Notes under the pieces: generated by a model | What the model saw: the letters and a program-made list of their open reading frames with translations, nothing else | Told to the model about the DNA's origin: nothing | The model's database searches: none | Program-made: the position numbers and the translations under genes | In this document: positions 7,247 through 45,273 of the stretch, one piece after another | Numbering within the stretch: the first letter of the stretch is position 1 | Layout: each line of letters starts with the position of its first letter | Assembly (NCBI GenBank): GCA_017991475.1 | Contig: JAGOQK010000003.1 | Coordinates: forward strand, 848 to 64,847 | Direction: 5' to 3' | Length of the DNA stretch: 64,000 nt | DNA from: Minisyncoccota bacterium | Lineage (GTDB): Bacteria; Patescibacteriota; Minisyncoccia; Phycocordibacterales; PALSA-1337

Positions 7247-7314
7247 AGGTTATATATTTTCGTATGTCAGGCCAAGATACCATGGCAGGCGAAGAAAGTA
7301 AAGCTTTAATCACT

Positions 7315-7420
7315 GTGAGGAAGACATGTGTGTTTCTGACGGTGCTTCGTTGTATTTGTACACTACACTTTAAAGAACCGTTCTGCGAAGCACCGTCAGA
7401 AACACACATGTCTTCCTCAC
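7315..7420. repeat. Long perfect inverted repeat (35-bp arms, about 36-nt loop) in the divergent rpsT/ruvA intergenic region
   Basis: GTGAGGAAGACATGTGTGTTTCTGACGGTGCTTCG ... CGAAGCACCGTCAGAAACACACATGTCTTCCTCAC, exact complement; shares the CATGTGTGTTTCTGA-like motif with hairpins at 12196, 31209 and 36972. Confidence 0.85.
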
Positions 7421-7445
7421 GGTGCCTTATTTGCTATACTAACCC

Positions 7446-8031
7446 CATGATCTCCTACCTTCGTGGCCCCATCATCGAACTCGGCACTCGCTATGCCGTT
7501 CTCGATATGAGCGGGCTCGGCTACAAGGTCTATACGACCGATGACACTATCCATACCCTCAAGGTCGGGCAGGAAGTCACCTTCTGGGCGCATACCATCG
7601 TCCGTGAGGATGCGCTCGATCTCTACGGCTTCACTTCACAGCGAGAACGCTCATTCTTCGAGCTCCTCATCGGCATTTCAGGAATAGGTCCCAAGAGTGC
7701 CCTCAATATCCTCTCACTCGTCTCAGCTGATACTCTCGCGAGCTCTATCCGCAGTGGCTCAGTCGCGCACCTAGTCAAAGTTTCTGGAATTGGTCGGAAG
7801 ACTGCAGAGAAGATCGTCCTCGAACTCAAAGACAAGCTCGCAGGTTCATCATTCCACTCAGACGACCCTACCCTCTCAGCTGGCATGTCGAGCGATATGG
7901 ATGCACTCGAAGCCCTCCGCGCACTGGGGTATGAAACTGATGAGGCGCGTGATGCATTGAAAAAGATTCCTACAGATATCACTGATACGGGCAAGAAGGT
8001 GAAGGCGGCTCTCAAGGAGTTGGGGAGGTAA
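7446..8031 (+). CDS. ruvA: Holliday junction DNA helicase subunit RuvA
   Basis: MISYLRGPIIEL... N-terminus, HhH motifs (GIGPKSALNIL, VSGIGRKTAEKIV) and C-terminal RuvB-interaction domain. The longer ORF in the track (from 7264) runs through the hairpin and is rejected. Confidence 0.9.
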
Positions 8032-12195: not shown

Positions 12196-12320
12196 GCAGA
12201 CACCGCGCAGGTGGCGCATGTGTTTTCAGCATGTCATGCTTTGGCGGTCATATAAAGTCCGGATCTTCAATCCTAAACATGACATGCTGAAAACACATGC
12301 GCCACCTGCGCGGTGTCTGC
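12196..12320. repeat. Long perfect inverted repeat (43-bp arms, about 39-nt loop), hairpin family member B
   Basis: GCAGACACCGCGCAGGTGGCGCATGTGTTTTCAGCATGTCATG ... CATGACATGCTGAAAACACATGCGCCACCTGCGCGGTGTCTGC. Loop (as reverse complement) begins TTTAGGATTGAA, as in the copies at 31209 and 36972. Confidence 0.9.
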
Positions 12321-15629: not shown

Positions 15630-18281
15630 CTACTTCAACTCCCCCCAACTCTCCCCTATCGCACCATCTGCTCTCAGTGCAATCCCTTTGGTATCTTCAA
15701 GACTCATGACACCCTCCATGATCTTCTCGATCTCCTTCGAGACCGCTTCTGCCTTTTCATTCTTGATCTCATAGACGAGCTCGTCGTGAACTTGGAGCAA
15801 CGCATGAACATCAGCCTCAAGACCATTCTTCTTGATATACTCATCCACTCGTACCATCGCGATCTTGATCACGTCAGCCTCCGTTCCTTGGATCGGTGCA
15901 TTGATAGCCATACGCTCTGCCTGAGCGCGAATATAGGGAATCTTAGACTTGATACCCTCGAAGTATCTGCGACGACCATAGAAGGTCTCTGTGTAGCCAC
16001 GACGCGCAGTCTCAGCCTTCACTTCATTGAGGTAGTTCGCGAGCATTGAGAATGTGTGGAAATAATCATCATAGAATTTCTGCGCAGTCGGACGATCGGT
16101 GCCAATACTCTTCTGGAGCGACGTCACGCCCATACCATAGAGCATGCCGAAGTTGATGGCCTTGGCTTGGCGGCGCATCTCAGAGGTCACCTGATCCTGT
16201 GGGACCTTGAATACAAACGCTGCAACTGATGCATGCACATCCTGTCCTCCTTTGAAGATCTCTATCATCTTCTCGTCGTTCGACAAGAAAGCTGCGATAC
16301 GGAGCTCGATCTGGGAATAGTCGAAGCTGCAGAGCTTGTATCCCCTCTCAGCGATGAATGCATATCTGATGGCTTTGCCGAGCTCGGTCTTGATCGGGAT
16401 ATTCTGGAGATTGGGATTGATAGACGCCATACGACCTGTCGCTGATCCTGCTGATACGAGATGTGAGTGCAGACGATTATTCTTGTCGAGAAGTGGCGGT
16501 ATCGCATCGATATAAGTCGAAAGAAGTTTGGTAAGTTCACGGTACTCGAAGATGAGCTTCACGATCGGGTGAAGGTCGACGAGCTTTTCGAGCTCTGATT
16601 CTTTGGTCGAGCGTGCACCACCCGCAGTTTTCTTCATACCCTTTGCCGTCAATCCGAGCTTGTCAAAAAGTACTTCACCGAGCTGCTTGGGTGAACTGAT
16701 ATTGAATTCCATATCCGCAAGCTTCCAGATCTCCTTTTGCAGTCGATCAGCCTCTGCGTGATACTTTTTGCCGAGATCTTCGAGCAGTATCTTGTCTACC
16801 TTGATACCGCGCTCCTCCATCTTGTCAGTGATCGGAATGAGTGGAAGTTCAATATCTTCATACACCTTTCGCAGATTCCTTTTATCGAGCTCCGCAAATA
16901 CTGTCTCGCGCGCTTTCCCAAACTCATCCGTATTGGCAAAATTGAGCAGATCTTCTAGTGTCGGATTCGTCAGGTTCGAGTTCACCACCCATAGCGCAAG
17001 TAATGTCTCTTTGAGAACCGTCGGATCAATGGCGCTATTAAAAAGAGAGGTTGATGTGGGTGCGGGTGAAGTAGTGGTTGGATTTACATCTGCTGTGCTG
17101 TCATTCCCGCGCAGGCGGGAATCCAGGGTTTTACCAGGAACTTTATTTTTGCTATCCGTCGCCCCTGCGTTCGAGTCAGTGGTATGACCCTGGATTCCCG
17201 CCTGCGCGGGAATGACAGCAGAAGCCGCTCCTACACCCGCCCCTCCACCCACCACCTTCTGCAAGCGCTGCACCAACGTTCGAAATTCGAGTTGCGTCCA
17301 AAGCGTCGTCACCTTCTTGATATCCAATCCTTCCTTGAATGTCTTCTCCGGCAACACAAACTCCACCGGCGCCTTCCTATTGATCGTCGCGAGCATCTTG
17401 CTGAATTCTGCCTCCTCTTTGTTATCTTTCAAGAGCTGCACAATTCTCGGCGTAATCCCTGCATCCAAGAATTTTTTCTCATGGCCTGCCTCGAGCTCCT
17501 TATACATATTCTCGATCGTCCCAAATGTCGTGATGAGAATGGTTGCCGTCTTTTCACCGATCCCTTTCACGCCGATAATATTGTCCGATGGATCTCCACG
17601 AAGTCCCTTGTAGTCAGGAATGAGTTCTGGCCCAAATCCAAATCGCTCACGCACCATATCTTCGTCATAGATGATCGTATCCTTGATTCCCTTTTTCAGA
17701 GTATAAACGCGCACAGTTGTCCCTTTAACCAACTGTAAGGTATCCATATCACCCGAGGCGATAACAATCTCAAGTCGATGGTCAGCAGTCGGCAGTCCTT
17801 GCGACTTTAGTTTCGAGCGGCTCTGACTGTCGACTGCTGACTGTCGACTAATCACTTGTTCTACTATGGTTCCCAACATATCATCTGCTTCATATCCTTC
17901 CTTGCTATACATCGGTATGTCGAGCGCCGTGAATATATCCGGAGACCGATTGATCTGGGTGATGAGGTCATCATCAGTCTCCTTGCGTTGTGCTTTGTAG
18001 CCCTTGTACGCTTCATGGCGGAATGTGAGACCCTTGAGATCATAGCAAGCTACTACATAGTCAGGCTTGAGTTGCTCAATGATGCTGATGAGCATGGTCG
18101 AGAGACCGTAGAGTGCACCCGTAGGCTCGCCACGCGCCGTCGAGAAGTCAGGCAGGGCGTGGTAGGCACGATGAAGTATTGCGTGAGTATCGAGGAGTAC
18201 CAGGCGCTTGGTTTCTACCTTCTCGGCTTTTGGGGATTTTGCAGGCTTTTTTGTGGCTGGTGACATAGGGGCATTGTACAC
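15630..18281 (-). CDS. polA: DNA polymerase I (5'-3' exonuclease + 3'-5' exonuclease-like + polymerase domains) carrying an in-frame palindromic-repeat insertion in the inter-domain linker
   Basis: 883 aa. 5'-nuclease N-terminus (LVLLDTHAILHRAYHA), polymerase motifs (DYSQIELRIAAFLS, motif B RRQAKAINFGMLYG, motif C LQVHDELVYE). Linker contains ...AVIPAQAGIQ...SRLRGNDS... encoded by the hairpin repeat at 17097-17219. Confidence 0.95.
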   Translation of the reverse strand: MYNAPMSPATKKPAKSPKAEKVETKRLVLLDTHAILHRAYHALPDFSTARGEPTGALYGLSTMLISIIEQLKPDYVVACYDLKGLTFRHEAYKGYKAQRKETDDDLITQINRSPDIFTALDIPMYSKEGYEADDMLGTIVEQVISRQSAVDSQSRSKLKSQGLPTADHRLEIVIASGDMDTLQLVKGTTVRVYTLKKGIKDTIIYDEDMVRERFGFGPELIPDYKGLRGDPSDNIIGVKGIGEKTATILITTFGTIENMYKELEAGHEKKFLDAGITPRIVQLLKDNKEEAEFSKMLATINRKAPVEFVLPEKTFKEGLDIKKVTTLWTQLEFRTLVQRLQKVVGGGAGVGAASAVIPAQAGIQGHTTDSNAGATDSKNKVPGKTLDSRLRGNDSTADVNPTTTSPAPTSTSLFNSAIDPTVLKETLLALWVVNSNLTNPTLEDLLNFANTDEFGKARETVFAELDKRNLRKVYEDIELPLIPITDKMEERGIKVDKILLEDLGKKYHAEADRLQKEIWKLADMEFNISSPKQLGEVLFDKLGLTAKGMKKTAGGARSTKESELEKLVDLHPIVKLIFEYRELTKLLSTYIDAIPPLLDKNNRLHSHLVSAGSATGRMASINPNLQNIPIKTELGKAIRYAFIAERGYKLCSFDYSQIELRIAAFLSNDEKMIEIFKGGQDVHASVAAFVFKVPQDQVTSEMRRQAKAINFGMLYGMGVTSLQKSIGTDRPTAQKFYDDYFHTFSMLANYLNEVKAETARRGYTETFYGRRRYFEGIKSKIPYIRAQAERMAINAPIQGTEADVIKIAMVRVDEYIKKNGLEADVHALLQVHDELVYEIKNEKAEAVSKEIEKIMEGVMSLEDTKGIALRADGAIGESWGELK
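17097..17219. repeat. 123-bp palindromic element (33-bp perfect arms with a nested TTCCCGCGCAGGCGGGAA mini-palindrome) embedded in-frame in polA
   Basis: GCTGTCATTCCCGCGCAGGCGGGAATCCAGGGT ... ACCCTGGATTCCCGCCTGCGCGGGAATGACAGC. Length is a multiple of 3 and the polA ORF reads through it. Confidence 0.85.
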
Positions 18282-18319: not shown

Positions 18320-18850
18320 TTATTCAGCTTTCTTCACCATCTCCATATCAATGATAATCGCTCCGCTTTTTAGTCGACCAGATTCCTGCGCCGTTCTTTT
18401 TCCTGTATCGGTAAAACCCAATTTTTTATAAAAGTTTATTGCGTTTTCTGTATATTCTGCAACCTGAACATATGTATCTTTTCTAGGGTCAAGAAATTCC
18501 ATCGCCTTATTCCAAAGTTTCGTTCCAATTCCCTTGTTCTGAAATTCGGGCAAAATGTACAGGGTTCTTAAATGATTATTATTCTCATTTCTAATAACTG
18601 TACAAGCACCGACGACCATATTCCCTCTTTTTGCAACCAGTCTTTTTTTATTTTCTGGTAAATTTCTTATTAATTCCTTTAAGTTATCAATCTTTTCATC
18701 AGAAAAATCATCCTTATAGCTATCTTCAATATCATCTATTGTCACTCCCTTCTCTTTATTCGGGTATGTCGAAAGCCATGCTTTATAGAATACATTTGTA
18801 ATTCCTAACGCATCATCAGGAACAGCATCAAGAATATTGATATCTTCCAT
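18320..18850 (-). CDS. GNAT-family N-acetyltransferase
   Basis: Acetyl-CoA binding motif region (VAKRGNMVVGACTV...QNKGIGTKLWNKAMEF). Confidence 0.8.
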   Translation of the reverse strand: MEDINILDAVPDDALGITNVFYKAWLSTYPNKEKGVTIDDIEDSYKDDFSDEKIDNLKELIRNLPENKKRLVAKRGNMVVGACTVIRNENNNHLRTLYILPEFQNKGIGTKLWNKAMEFLDPRKDTYVQVAEYTENAINFYKKLGFTDTGKRTAQESGRLKSGAIIIDMEMVKKAE

Positions 18851-18862
18851 ATTATTTAAAAA

Positions 18863-19408
18863 CTAATACTCCACCACCCTCTCATTCTCGCCCTCCCCGA
18901 CACTAAAGTTAATCTGAGAATACCCCTCAAGTTTCTCCACCGCCCCCTTCACATTTTCCGGCCACTCAATGAGGATGAGGTTATCTGGATCAGCAGCATA
19001 CTTCGCAAAATTGATCGCTTCCAATTCCTGGGCACGCTCGAGACGATATGCGTCGATGTGCACGAGACGCTTCCACGGAAAATTCGCTGCTCCGTTCTCT
19101 GTCAGATCCGCTACCACCTTCGTCGGATCAATATCATATATCTTCATAATCACAAATGTCGGACTCGTCACATCCTCTGTGATACCGAGATCCTTCGCCA
19201 CACATTTCGTAAAAGCAGTCTTCCCTGCACCGAGGTGACCTGAGAGACCGATAATTGTTGCTGTGTCTGTGTCATTCCCGCGAAGGCGAATTAGCAAATT
19301 CGTGCCTGGCCGGGAATCCATGCGATTCTTATTTTCAGAAATACCTCGCAGCCATTCATGGGCAATTTGGGCTGTTTCTTCTAGAGAATGTGATACTTGC
19401 TTAATCAT
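18863..19408 (-). CDS. tsaE: tRNA threonylcarbamoyladenosine biosynthesis ATPase TsaE (YjeE) with an in-frame repeat-derived insertion near the N-terminus
   Basis: P-loop LSGHLGAGKTAFTKCVAKDLG typical of TsaE; the preceding NKNRMDSRPGTNLLIRLRGNDTDT segment is encoded by the GTCATTCCCGCG...CCGGGAATCC repeat. Confidence 0.8.
   Translation of the reverse strand: MIKQVSHSLEETAQIAHEWLRGISENKNRMDSRPGTNLLIRLRGNDTDTATIIGLSGHLGAGKTAFTKCVAKDLGITEDVTSPTFVIMKIYDIDPTKVVADLTENGAANFPWKRLVHIDAYRLERAQELEAINFAKYAADPDNLILIEWPENVKGAVEKLEGYSQINFSVGEGENERVVEY
19271..19320. repeat. Palindromic element of the same family as 17097-17219 (GTCATTCCCGCGAAGGCG ... GGCCGGGAATCC) inside tsaE
   Basis: Shares the CATTCCCGCG / CGGGAATCC arms and encodes the same RLRGND peptide motif found in polA. 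Confidence 0.65.
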
Positions 19409-31208: not shown

Positions 31209-31328
31209 ACTGAAACACAGTGGTGTGCGTGTGTTTTCTCAGTGTCATGTTTATGATTGAGCACTAAGCTTAAAAAGACTGATAAAGCATGACACTGAGA
31301 AAACACACGCACACCACTGTGTTTCAGT
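31209..31328. repeat. Long perfect inverted repeat (41-bp arms, 38-nt loop), hairpin family member C, in the dnaA-rpmH intergenic region
   Basis: ACTGAAACACAGTGGTGTGCGTGTGTTTTCTCAGTGTCATG ... CATGACACTGAGAAAACACACGCACACCACTGTGTTTCAGT; loop TTTATGATTGAGCACTAAGC... Confidence 0.9.
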
Positions 31329-36971: not shown

Positions 36972-37093
36972 GAGCCCTCATGTACGCGGTACGCATGTTT
37001 TGTGCATGTCATGTTTAGGATTGAACACTAGAAATAATGTTACCTACTAAGCATGACATGCACAAAACATGCGTACCGCGTACATGAGGGCTC
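36972..37093. repeat. Long perfect inverted repeat (42-bp arms, 38-nt loop), hairpin family member D, inside the T4SS-like gene block between the VirB4-like gene and the next gene
   Basis: GAGCCCTCATGTACGCGGTACGCATGTTTTGTGCATGTCATG ... CATGACATGCACAAAACATGCGTACCGCGTACATGAGGGCTC; loop TTTAGGATTGAACACTAGAAATAATGTTACCTACTAAG. Confidence 0.9.
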
Positions 37094-44349: not shown

Positions 44350-45273
44350 TTATTGTAATTGTGAAAAGAGTGATCCAGGCTCTGTTGACGCAAAGGCGAT
44401 TCCCGCTAAGGCGAAGTATGACTTTATGCTCTTGAGCGAAGTTAGAAGATTGCTTTGGATGGCAGTATATGCGCTTACTGATACCATCGTCTGCATCGGA
44501 TCATGTTCGACGCCCCGAATATCACGAGAAATTTTTGCCATACCAGATACTGCATTTAGAAGATCTACATGATAGGGAGCGAGAGGTTGTGGGACAGGCG
44601 TACCCTTGAGCTGGGTCGCTATCGTCTCGTATGAAGATACTACAGGGTCAATCTGCATGAGAAGCTTCATGTCCCCCTTTTCCAATGCGTCATTTGCGAT
44701 GACGGCTGGATCGGCGTCGACTCCGTATGTCGAAAATGTAAATCCGACAGCATTTCCATACTCCTTGACGTTGGTCGCGGTAGCTTCTGCGATGATTGAA
44801 ATATCAGCCACGGTAAATGCCTTGGGTTGTTCTGCTGCGCGCGCAGCGTTGTATATCGATTGATTCAATGTGTCTGTAACGAACGGCTGGTTCTCGATGA
44901 GATTGCTCTGCTTGAGCTGTATATAGCGAGCGAAGAAATCCCTGCCGAATTGATCAGTGAGGGTCAAATCTTCTAACGATGTTGATGGTACGGCAGTGCG
45001 GGTAGGTGCGGCTGGCTTCTCAAGAAAACTCAACCTCCAATCAGTCGTAGATGCTGAGGTCTCGTTTGTTTTTTGCGTAGAAACAACATCGATGGAACTC
45101 GCTGGGATCGATCCGGACGATGCTTTCTCGGTGGGTTGACCTGACTTTGCGTATATAAATACGCCTCCAACGGCCAGGACGCACAGTATCGCAATCAAGG
45201 CAGTCTGTTTGTGAGGGTAATAGCTCGCCATATCACTACAAGTATAGCAGAAAATCAATAGATTCTCGGCCAT
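44350..45273 (-). CDS. Membrane-anchored hypothetical protein
   Basis: Single N-terminal TM (ALIAILCVLAVGGVFIY), extracellular remainder. Confidence 0.45.
   Translation of the reverse strand: MAENLLIFCYTCSDMASYYPHKQTALIAILCVLAVGGVFIYAKSGQPTEKASSGSIPASSIDVVSTQKTNETSASTTDWRLSFLEKPAAPTRTAVPSTSLEDLTLTDQFGRDFFARYIQLKQSNLIENQPFVTDTLNQSIYNAARAAEQPKAFTVADISIIAEATATNVKEYGNAVGFTFSTYGVDADPAVIANDALEKGDMKLLMQIDPVVSSYETIATQLKGTPVPQPLAPYHVDLLNAVSGMAKISRDIRGVEHDPMQTMVSVSAYTAIQSNLLTSLKSIKSYFALAGIAFASTEPGSLFSQLQ

What the first reader, a model, noticed from the sequence alone, without database searches (positions are those of the whole stretch)
19262..19320. Same palindromic element family inserted in-frame near the N-terminus of TsaE
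The tsaE ORF contains GTCATTCCCGCGAAGGCG...GGCCGGGAATCC with a nested GAATT...AATTC mini-hairpin. It encodes LLIRLRGNDTDT directly before the P-loop, the same RLRGND peptide produced by the polA insertion. Two independent in-frame insertions in essential genes argue for a phase-biased or selectively filtered mobile palindrome.
Basis: seen in the sequence. Interest (0 to 1): 0.6.

Follow-up and report, generated by a model that had tools for sequence, protein, structure and literature searches.

The report
Selfish palindromic repeat inside tsaE
A 51-base copy of a widespread, already described bacterial palindromic repeat (the CGTC-1 REP / dRS3 / RPE-6 family) sits in frame in a floppy surface loop of the tRNA-modification protein TsaE; this is a new example of a known phenomenon, not a new kind of element.

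Summary
The tsaE gene (18863-19408, minus strand) carries a 51-nt element (19270-19320) that its closest syntenic orthologue lacks. It encodes MDSRPGTNLLIRLRGND in a low-confidence coil between helix 1 and strand 1 of the AlphaFold model.

Removing 24 nt (19289-19312) leaves TGTCATTCCCGCGAAGGCGGGAATCCA. That is a canonical 27-nt CGTC-1 REP as defined by Di Nocera 2013: TGTC head, 8-bp stem, 4-nt loop, CCA tail. This family equals Neisseria dRS3 and Rickettsia RPE-6. So the "nested mini-hairpin" is a secondary in-frame insertion into a standard REP.

polA holds an inverted doublet (REPIN) of the same unit. The 26-mer occurs in many phyla, and in-frame copies in real genes, DNA polymerase I included, are already published.

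The unit is 9 codons long and open in 5 of 6 frames, so keeping the frame needs only ordinary selection. Related genomes show REPIN duplication within one genome, compensatory stem changes, and repeated occupation of the same permissive loops.

No transposase was found in the window. The mobilising enzyme remains unknown. Verdict: new member of a known kind, modest interest.

The parts
18863..19408 (-). tsaE coding sequence (181 aa), intact, all family-invariant residues present
   Evidence: ORF list. Pfam TsaE E = 1.1e-26. PDB TsaE/YjeE hits. AlphaFold2 model with mean pLDDT 89.5. Synteny PilB - hypothetical - tsaE - polA is shared with L001 and L126.
19270..19320 (+). REP-derived element, 51 nt, written head to tail on the + strand (TGTC...CCA). 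On the coding strand it encodes M30-D46, MDSRPGTNLLIRLRGND (codons 19271-19321).
   Evidence: Sequence. Absent from orthologues. Lies in the coil 31-50 with pLDDT 54-63.
19270..19288 (+). 5' part of the canonical REP: head TGTC (19270-19273), 5' stem ATTCCCGC (19274-19281), loop GAAG (19282-19285), and the first 3 nt of the 3' stem, GCG (19286-19288)
   Evidence: Layout matches the CGTC-1 definition in PMC3733652.
19289..19312 (+). Secondary 24-nt (8-codon, RPGTNLLI) insertion inside the 3' stem, AATTAGCAAATTCGTGCCTGGCCG. Its boundary is ambiguous by 2 nt.
   Evidence: Deleting it restores TGTCATTCCCGCGAAGGCGGGAATCCA exactly. The 24-mer is unique in the window. Outside the window it was found only in the same-genome assembly L003.
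19287..19302 (+). Nested mini-hairpin CGAATT-AGCA-AATTCG, formed by the secondary insertion together with 2 nt of the REP stem
   Evidence: Sequence; predicted folds.
19313..19320 (+). 3' end of the canonical REP: rest of the 3' stem GGAAT (19313-19317) and tail CCA (19318-19320)
15630..18281 (-). polA (883 aa: 5'-3' exonuclease plus family A polymerase), host of the comparison element
   Evidence: Pfam PF02739, PF01367 and PF00476.
17097..17219 (.). REPIN-type doublet in the polA inter-domain linker: two identical 27-nt REPs in inverted orientation (17099-17125 on +, 17191-17217 on -) around a 65-nt spacer. It encodes AVIPAQAGIQ...LDSRLRGNDS.
   Evidence: Fold energy -57 kcal/mol, z = -14. 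The same protein site holds REPINs in L001, L126 and L128.

Best explanation
The tsaE element is a single copy of the CGTC-1 family of repetitive palindromes (REPs), the family also known as dRS3 in Neisseria and RPE-6 in Rickettsia. It is a 27-nt hairpin unit with a TGTC head, an 8-bp stem ATTCCCGC/GCGGGAAT, a 4-nt loop and a CCA tail. It sits in frame in the loop between helix alpha-1 and strand beta-1 of TsaE. Its 3' stem was later split by a second, 24-nt in-frame insertion, which created the mini-hairpin.

It behaves as non-coding selfish DNA that happens to be translated. The unit is 9 codons long and has no stop codon in 5 of its 6 frames. Any copy that lands in a structurally permissive, solvent-exposed loop therefore just adds a short hydrophilic peptide (DSRLRGND) and escapes purifying selection. 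Copies landing elsewhere in an important gene are lost. That filter, together with the very short intergenic space of this small genome, explains why both copies of the family seen in the window lie inside housekeeping genes.

Shown here: family identity, insertion status, location in a disordered loop, the secondary insertion, duplication of related REPINs within one genome, and maintenance of the hairpin stems.

Inferred, not shown: that spread occurs through single-stranded hairpin DNA acted on in trans by a Y1 HUH transposase (RAYT-like) or another enzyme. No such gene is in the window, and the literature disagrees on whether this family has a dedicated transposase.
For: Insertion status:
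- The closest syntenic orthologue lacks the segment.
- Only 4 of the 120 closest homologues, plus 1 of 100 cluster representatives, carry a REP-type peptide in that loop.
- None of 80 further TsaE loci carries one.

Family identity:
- Deleting 19289-19312 restores TGTCATTCCCGCGAAGGCGGGAATCCA. This is the commonest variant in the genome scan (50 of 149).
- It fits the published CGTC-1 description of head, 8-bp stem, 4-nt loop and CCA tail, with TGTC noted as a frequent head variant (PMC3733652).
- The polA arms contain the exact Neisseria REP 21-mer ATTCCCGCGCAGGCGGGAATC (bioRxiv 10.1101/2021.07.10.451892).

Tolerance:
- The AlphaFold2 model puts residues 31-50 in coil with pLDDT 54-63, between helix 9-30 and strand 51-56. 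The rest of the protein is above 85.
- 5 of 6 frames are open.
- In-frame copies sit in bona fide genes of other phyla. By my reading of the translations (no domain search was run), these are Tgt, IleRS, TruB, a DNA methyltransferase and PrmC.

Mobility and hairpin constraint in relatives:
- L001 has two copies of a ~150-nt REPIN, about 85% identical including the spacer, at two sites in polA.
- Stems differ between lineages by compensatory changes: 98% of cells paired, 4 of 8 pairs changed on both sides, 0 of 500 shuffles reaching the observed value.

Permissive-loop filtering:
- The TsaE loop and two PolA sites hold different palindromic inserts in different lineages.
Against: - No empty-site/filled-site pair at near-identical sequence is available, so the insertion event itself, its exact boundaries and any target duplication are not seen. 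The nearest empty site is in a genome whose TsaE is only 73% identical.
- All four closest TsaE cases share the ATG-GAT-TCC start (M-D-S) and one frame. That fits either common descent or some site or frame preference better than fully random independent hits.
- The 27 REP nucleotides carry no substitution relative to the consensus, although the flanking codons are diverged. This needs either a recent arrival or some homogenising force.
Confidence: 0.8

Rival explanations
1. Functional, selected hairpin. The REP hairpins inside tsaE and polA are kept by selection at the DNA or RNA level, for example as a binding site for a conserved host factor, a replication or transcription pause site, or an mRNA stability element. 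On this view they are domesticated, not passengers.
For: - Stems change by compensatory substitutions while the encoded peptide changes freely: VIPAKAGIQ becomes VTPSKDGVQ, and LDSRLRGND becomes LDPDLRRGD.
- The two arms of one REPIN can differ from each other, yet each stays self-complementary.
- The same 26-mer is conserved across many phyla.
- The tsaE copy has no substitutions in its 27 REP nucleotides.
Against: - The closest relative has no element in tsaE and most TsaE orthologues lack it, so it is dispensable for TsaE.
- The tsaE hairpin has been broken by a 24-nt insertion and is barely more stable than shuffled sequence.
- Perfect stems can also be produced without selection, by template-switch correction of quasi-palindromes (established mutational mechanism; my knowledge), or by turnover of copies from a lineage-specific master sequence.
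- Di Nocera et al. argue that insertion into many unrelated proteins speaks against functional constraint.
Confidence: 0.1
2. Ancient single insertion inherited vertically. One REP entered the TsaE loop in a common ancestor of this Patescibacteria-like clade. It has since been lost, precisely or nearly so, in most lineages and reshaped in the few that keep it (window, P0009, P0060, and a remnant in P0042). On this view the tsaE copy is not a separate recent event.
For: - The window, L004 and L126 share the flank AAnAAT-NNC-ATGG(A/C)TTCC and the frame M-D-S...N-D-T.
- P0042, the sister of P0060 in the tree, has a mini-palindrome ATGGCTTCCAGGGAAGCCACA at the same place. It looks like a trimmed REP.
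- 4 of 4 cases have the CCAT tail, whereas CCAG is commoner genome-wide.
Against: - On the NJ tree, ancestral presence needs about 13 losses against 3-5 gains (my count from the tree; the tree is rough, built on about 140 residues).
- The REP core is unmutated although the flanks are strongly diverged.
- The stem variants match lineage-specific REP populations: ATTCCGGC in L004, ATTCCCGC in the window.
- The same loop also holds unrelated palindromic inserts in other lineages (QGRPAG repeats, EVRPPRSDL-type), as expected for a permissive loop hit repeatedly.
Confidence: 0.2
3. Local origin without transposition. The palindrome arose in place by replication slippage or template switching that turned a short quasi-palindrome in the loop-coding DNA into a longer hairpin.
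For: The 24-nt secondary insertion creates its own hairpin using 2 nt of the REP stem. It has no other copy, so that part may well have arisen locally.
Against: The outer 27 nt are identical to a repeat found in the neighbouring polA gene and in many phyla. Independent local origin of that exact sequence is not credible.
Confidence: 0.03
4. Assembly or binning artefact: a repeat-induced chimeric join placed a REP inside tsaE.
For: The source is a metagenome-assembled genome, and repeats can cause misjoins.
Against: - The reading frame is kept and the protein models well.
- An independent Logan assembly of SRR11088367 gives the identical protein and inner hairpin.
- Other genomes carry related elements at the same codon position.
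Confidence: 0.01

Closest known systems
CGTC-1 REP family (Di Nocera, De Gregorio & Rocco 2013, BMC Genomics 14:522; PMC3733652), which includes Neisseria dRS3 repeats
   Same: - Head CGTC/TGTC, 8-bp stem starting with AT, 4-nt loop and CCA tail.
- Frequent head-to-head dimers.
- Intragenic in-frame copies occur, DNA polymerase I among the hosts.
- No adjacent transposase.
- The polA arms contain the exact Neisseria 21-mer ATTCCCGCGCAGGCGGGAATC.
   Different: - The tsaE copy carries a 24-nt insertion in its 3' stem, so its present loop is 28 nt. Expanded loops were about 3% of copies in the scan.
- By inference the host is a Patescibacteria/CPR-type genome, a group not in that survey, which reported 5 phyla.
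- Copy number is low in the 64 kb seen (3 units).
Rickettsia palindromic elements (RPE; RPE-6 = CGTC-1 according to PMC3733652)
   Same: - Palindromic repeats inserted in frame into genes for functional, often housekeeping proteins of a small genome, adding short peptide segments.
- A Rickettsia endosymbiont locus (L072) has the identical 26-mer as a doublet, apparently inside the isoleucyl-tRNA synthetase gene by my reading of the translation.
   Different: - Different host phylum.
- The classic RPE-1 is about 100-150 bp, whereas this is a 27-nt singlet plus a secondary insertion.
- Structural placement of RPEs on protein surfaces was argued from modelling in the original work (my recollection, not checked here). 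Here it rests on an AlphaFold2 model.
REPIN-RAYT systems (Bertels & Rainey; Neisseria REPINs with a Group 2 RAYT)
   Same: - The REP sequence is the same as the Neisseria REPIN arms.
- The polA element has the REPIN architecture of two inverted REPs with a spacer.
- Related genomes show duplicated REPINs with a conserved spacer and lineage-specific arm variants.
   Different: - The tsaE element is a singlet, not a doublet.
- No RAYT was found in the window or next to any of 156 copies.
- The elements here are intragenic rather than extragenic.
- Population size in this genome is unknown.
Bacterial MITEs (e.g. Correia/NEMIS, RUP)
   Same: Small non-autonomous palindromic repeats that can lie within transcription units.
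   Different: - No terminal inverted repeats of IS type.
- No target-site duplication is detectable.
- The unit is far shorter (27 nt against 70-300 bp).

Membership tests
CGTC-1 REP (Di Nocera 2013) | Unpaired 5' head CGTC (TGTC accepted variant) | tested here: met
   TGTC at 19270-19273. The paper states the head is changed to TGTC in many repeats.
CGTC-1 REP (Di Nocera 2013) | 8-bp stem beginning with A-T, T-A pairs | tested here: met
   ATTCCCGC at 19274-19281 pairs with GCG (19286-19288) plus GGAAT (19313-19317) once the 24-nt insertion is removed. In the present sequence 7 outer pairs still form.
CGTC-1 REP (Di Nocera 2013) | 4-nt loop | tested here: inconclusive
   Loop GAAG is present (19282-19285), but the hairpin is interrupted. 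The distance between the outer arms is now 28 nt. The canonical loop is met only after conceptual deletion of 19289-19312.
CGTC-1 REP (Di Nocera 2013) | Short unpaired 3' tail, consensus CCA | tested here: met
   CCA at 19318-19320.
CGTC-1 REP (Di Nocera 2013) | Repeated in the genome, often as head-to-head dimers | tested here: met
   Two more units form an inverted dimer in polA. The genome-wide count was not testable, because only 64 kb is available.
REPIN-RAYT system | Two REPs in inverted orientation separated by a short spacer | tested here: not met
   The tsaE element is a singlet. No second arm lies within 150 nt. The polA element does meet this feature.
REPIN-RAYT system | A cognate RAYT (Y1 HUH transposase) gene in the same genome, flanked by the REP | tested here: inconclusive
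None lies next to 156 copies in 120 loci. The rest of the genome is not available.
REPIN-RAYT system | Population of near-identical copies around a master sequence | not testable with these tools
   This needs the whole genome. In relatives, lineage-specific variants recur: ACCCCGTC occurs twice, plus the one-pair variant ACCCCGAC, in 8 kb of L001.
Rickettsia palindromic elements (RPE) | Palindromic repeat inserted in frame within a gene for a recognisable protein that stays intact | tested here: met
   The tsaE ORF is intact, all invariant residues are present, and the model is confident outside the insert.
Rickettsia palindromic elements (RPE) | Sequence family shared with Rickettsia repeats (RPE-6) | tested here: met
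   The identical 26-mer is present 6 times in 8 kb of a Rickettsia endosymbiont chromosome (L072). The equation of RPE-6 with CGTC-1 is taken from PMC3733652. No RPE-6 reference sequence was aligned directly.
MITE | IS-like terminal inverted repeats and a target-site duplication | tested here: not met
   No direct repeat flanks the element. The flanks differ (CGCAT versus ACAGAC). The boundaries are blurred by divergence from the nearest empty site.

The most novel reading that the evidence does not exclude
The hairpins may not be mere passengers. In these reduced genomes, CGTC-1 REPs inside housekeeping genes could be held under a nucleic-acid-level constraint that acts independently of the encoded peptide, with stems kept by compensatory change over deep divergence. 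They may also reach the same codon positions repeatedly: the TsaE alpha1-beta1 loop in at least 5 lineages, always in the DS..ND frame, and two PolA sites. That would imply either a site- or structure-directed insertion mechanism, or a function for the hairpin (a host-factor binding site, a pause site or an mRNA element) embedded in coding sequence. It would also fit the near-universal conservation of the 26-mer across bacterial phyla and a DPANN archaeon.
Probability: 0.15. Interest if true: 0.65.

Novelty: new member of a known kind. Interest (0 to 1): 0.3.

Why it matters
On its own this is one more case of a selfish palindromic repeat tolerated inside a housekeeping gene. That matters mainly for annotation: REP-encoded peptides such as DSRLRGND, VIPAKAGIQ and HSREGGN should not be read as protein motifs, and insert-bearing TsaE or PolA sequences should not be treated as novel variants.

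It does extend the published CGTC-1/dRS3/RPE-6 family to Patescibacteria-type genomes. It also provides clean material for two open questions: what mobilises CGTC-type REPs, and why their hairpins stay perfect. The material is paralogous REPINs within one gene, compensatory stem variants at orthologous sites, and a REP split by a secondary insertion.

TsaE's alpha1-beta1 loop and two PolA sites emerge as natural permissive sites, which could be useful for protein engineering.

Tried and rejected
- Conserved TsaE sequence: rejected by alignments with orthologues and PDB chains.
- Known RNA family: Rfam gave only three tRNAs in the window at gathering threshold. At the relaxed threshold nothing matched the tsaE element, and the polA hits were sub-threshold long-hairpin artefacts.
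- Cognate transposase in the window or beside other copies: no hits. The regex for HUH...Y..NP found nothing in the window and two false positives in 120 loci. This is weak negative evidence only.
- Is the 24-nt inner segment itself a repeat? It has no other copy in the window (up to 3 mismatches). Among the 206 fetched loci, its 16-nt hairpin core was found only in the same-genome contig L003 (exact match).
- Census of TsaE proteins with a REP in the loop:
  - The profile search of cluster representatives added only one case, P0131.
  - The same profile in the search for homologous proteins returned 16 short fragments and not even the query proteins, so it was uninformative.
  - 80 metagenome tsaE loci had none.
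- DNA for P0009 could not be fetched because the sample file is too large.
- Strict phase bias: rejected. Other frames are used in other genes (VIPAKAGI 4, HSREGGN 6, IPAFAGM 1, against DSRLRGND 9 in a crude stop-free-stretch count).
- Spacer homology between the L001 and L126 polA-linker REPINs was first read as proof of orthology. This was withdrawn after a paralogous copy with the same spacer turned up elsewhere in L001 polA.
- The weak match at 44399 was judged probably chance.

Full report
**1. The observation**

The + strand of the window reads TGTCATTCCCGCGAAGGCGAATTAGCAAATTCGTGCCTGGCCGGGAATCCA at 19270-19320. The minus-strand ORF 18863-19408 (181 aa) is TsaE (Pfam PF02367, E = 1.1e-26; PDB TsaE/YjeE hits). 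It reads ...ENKNRMDSRPGTNLLIRLRGNDTDTATIIGLSGHLGAGKT....

PolA (15630-18281, minus strand) contains ...AVIPAQAGIQGHTTDSNAGATDSKNKVPGKTLDSRLRGNDS.... This is encoded by an inverted doublet of GTCATTCCCGCGCAGGCGGGAATCC at 17099-17125 and 17191-17217.

The shared motif is far above chance: 3 matches to ATTCCCG-N(4-34)-CGGGAAT against 0.00 expected, and 4 matches against 0.11 for the 15-mer. The nested CGAATT/AATTCG hairpin is real.

The present tsaE hairpin is only weakly more stable than shuffled sequence (z about -1.8 to -2.3). The polA doublet has z = -14. An independent assembly (L003, Logan, SRR11088367) encodes the identical TsaE and contains the inner hairpin.

**2. It is an insertion**

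The closest orthologue is P0002 (73% identity), in a syntenic locus PilB - hypothetical - tsaE - polA (L001/L002). It lacks the segment. The DNA alignment shows a net 45-nt gap.

Most of the 120 closest homologues have a short loop at this point. HMMER alignments to solved TsaE structures begin after the segment or run across it without real similarity.

An AlphaFold2 model built on 116 homologues (mean pLDDT 89.5) shows helix 9-30, coil 31-50 with pLDDT 54-63, then strand 51-56 leading into the P-loop. The REP-encoded residues 30-46 therefore form a low-confidence loop at the end of strand beta-1 opposite to the P-loop. That placement relative to the nucleotide site follows from general P-loop NTPase topology and is inference.

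**3. Anatomy**

Deleting the 24 nt at 19289-19312 (AATTAGCAAATTCGTGCCTGGCCG, boundary ambiguous by 2 nt) leaves exactly TGTCATTCCCGCGAAGGCGGGAATCCA. This comprises:
- head TGTC
- stem ATTCCCGC
- loop GAAG
- stem GCGGGAAT
- tail CCA

On the coding strand this reads D-S-[RPGTNLLI]-R-L-R-G-N-D. In other words, the canonical DSRLRGND is interrupted by eight extra codons. The 24-mer is unique in the window. Among the fetched loci its hairpin core is seen only in the same-genome contig.

Expanded loops are rare in the family: about 5 of 156 copies in the genome scan.

**4. What the family is**

The 21-mer ATTCCCGCGCAGGCGGGAATC in the polA arms is, letter for letter, the Neisseria REP. It occurs 241 times in N. 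meningitidis 2594, and Bertels & Rainey link it to a Group 2 RAYT (bioRxiv 10.1101/2021.07.10.451892). It is also the RS3 primer sequence in PMC2527323.

Di Nocera et al. 2013 (PMC3733652) define the CGTC-1 family as follows:
- head CGTC, often TGTC
- 8-bp stem starting with AT
- 4-nt loop
- tail CCA
- mostly head-to-head dimers

They equate it with Neisseria dRS3 and Rickettsia conorii RPE-6. They report copies entirely within ORFs, many in DNA synthesis and repair genes including DNA polymerase I, and also in tRNA synthetases and truB. They suggest such inserts may be neutral because they lie in flexible linkers or loops. [quoted passage not shown] The tsaE element fits this family on every feature except the interrupted loop.

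**5. Distribution**

Record titles named many phyla:
- Bacteroidota, Planctomycetota, Chloroflexota, Nitrospirota and all proteobacterial classes
- Parcubacteria, Saccharibacteria and other Patescibacteria
- a Rickettsia endosymbiont
- a Nanoarchaeota MAG

. Flanks are unrelated. Many copies have an inverted partner 30-110 nt away.

A crude test for long stop-free stretches found about 18 intragenic cases. Reading the translations, I take the hosts to include tRNA-guanine transglycosylase (Parcubacteria, L017), isoleucyl-tRNA synthetase (Rickettsia endosymbiont, L072), TruB (L035), a DNA methyltransferase (L032) and PrmC (L086). No domain search was run on them.

**6. Frame**

The unit is 27 nt, which is 9 codons. 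Five of its six frames are open:
- VIPAKAGI
- SFPRRRES
- HSREGGN
- DSRLRGND
- IPAFAGM

Only GFPPSRE* carries a stop. Intragenic copies elsewhere use DSRLRGND (9), HSREGGN (6), VIPAKAGI (4) and IPAFAGM (1).

Frame preservation therefore needs no special mechanism. A mild preference for the hydrophilic frames is compatible with selection for tolerated surface loops.

**7. Relatives: mobility, stem maintenance and permissive loops**

*The TsaE loop.* Four of the 120 closest TsaE proteins carry a REP-type peptide at the same loop and in the same frame:
- the window: NRMDSRPG..RLRGNDT
- P0009: NRMDSGMHWNDT
- P0060: NHMDSGLRRNDTVMHGND
- P0103: DMDSRRSLPSTPIVGGND

A fifth case, P0131 (LDSRLCGND..MDSCLRG..RGND), came from the search of cluster representatives.

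The DNA shows lineage-specific stems: ATTCCGGC in L004, and ATTCCCGCC with a 26-nt inner segment in L005. On a rough NJ tree the carriers are scattered, and the window's sister lacks the element. P0042, the sister of P0060, has a mini-palindrome ATGGCTTCCAGGGAAGCCACA at the spot. The same loop carries unrelated palindromic inserts in other lineages.

*The PolA linker.* This site holds REPINs in the window, L001, L126 and L128, with arm stems ATTCCCGC, ACCCCGTC/ACCCCGAC, ATCCCCGC and ATTCCCGC respectively.

*Stem maintenance.* Across seven such units, 98% of cells pair and 4 of 8 pairs show double-sided changes, with 0 of 500 shuffles reaching the observed value.

*Duplication.* L001 has a second REPIN at another PolA site (GTIVEQV...EIVIASGD). 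It is about 85% identical to its linker REPIN over 158 nt, spacer included. That is direct evidence of duplication within a genome. It also means spacer similarity cannot be used as proof of orthology.

*A second permissive PolA site.* That same PolA site holds a different 77-nt palindrome in the window (17773-17849) and another insert in L126, but nothing in L128.

Together these results point to repeated hits into permissive loops. A shared old insertion for part of the TsaE clade cannot be excluded, because of the shared flank AAnAAT-NNC-ATGG and the shared CCAT tail.

**8. Transposase**

No Y1/HUH-like ORF was found in the window, nor near the 156 copies.

This agrees with Di Nocera et al. 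It does not contradict Bertels & Rainey, because only 64 kb of this genome is visible. Quentin et al. (PMC6006769) note that Alphaproteobacteria, Rickettsiales included, have few or no Y1 genes.

**9. Verdict**

The element is a CGTC-1 REP singlet with a secondary 24-nt insertion, translated as a disordered loop of TsaE and retained because it is harmless there.

The kind of element and its in-frame occurrence in housekeeping genes are published. What is new is the host group, the TsaE site, the split REP, and the comparative evidence for hairpin maintenance and repeated use of the same loops.

The taxon assignment (Patescibacteria/CPR-like) is inferred from the names attached to homologues and related loci. 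It was not tested directly.

Noticed in passing
window 17773-17849: A different 77-nt palindrome (GTCAGCAGTCGGCAGTC... / ...GACTGTCGACTGCTGAC) lies in frame in the 5'-3' exonuclease domain of polA, between GTIVEQV and EIVIASGD. The same protein site holds a CGTC-type REPIN in L001 and another insert in L126, but nothing in L128. It looks like a second permissive-loop hotspot.
   Followed up: partly
L001 7338-7495 and 8048-8205: There are two paralogous ~150-nt REPINs inside one polA gene, about 85% identical including the spacer. Each REP arm carries its own perfectly self-complementary stem variant (ATACCGGC, ACCCCGTC, ACCCCGAC). This is evidence of duplication within a genome followed by compensatory stem change.
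   Followed up: yes
L001/L002 about 7798-7815: An 11-nt net insertion containing the perfect palindrome TCCGCCAGCTGGCGGA shifts the polA frame, so the gene is called in two pieces in L001. L002 shows similar gene calls here, but its sequence at this point was not compared. It is either a real disruption or a shared assembly error.
   Followed up: partly
window 36972-37093, 12196-12320, 31209-31328, 7311-7424: A second, unrelated family of ~120-nt near-perfect palindromes shares CATGTGTTTTC...CATGTCATG. The copies lie mostly between genes.
   Followed up: no
L006-L125 (genome-contig scan): The exact hairpin TGTCATTCCCGCG-NNNN-CGGGAATCC occurs in many bacterial phyla and in a Nanoarchaeota MAG. 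The published survey reported the family in 5 phyla.
   Followed up: partly
L126 2090-2112: The TsaE loop of this relative (P0042) holds a mini-palindrome ATGGCTTCCAGGGAAGCCACA exactly where other lineages have a full REP. It may be a trimmed remnant.
   Followed up: partly
window 44397-44425: A weak REP-like string (GATTCCCGCTAAGGCGAAGTATGAC) lies near the C-terminus of ORF 44350-45273. It forms a poor hairpin and is probably chance or a very decayed copy.
   Followed up: partly
window 18320-18850: A GNAT-type acetyltransferase gene sits between tsaE and polA here (and in the same-genome contig L003), but not in the syntenic loci L001 and L126.
   Followed up: no
window, cumulative GC skew: Cumulative GC skew falls until about 34-36 kb and then rises, so a replication origin or terminus may lie near there.
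   Followed up: no
P0195: A 221-aa predicted protein consists largely of six tandem PWMDSRLRGNDTQNATIA units. This is an array of the same REP read through as a spurious ORF, and shows how the repeat contaminates protein databases.
   Followed up: no
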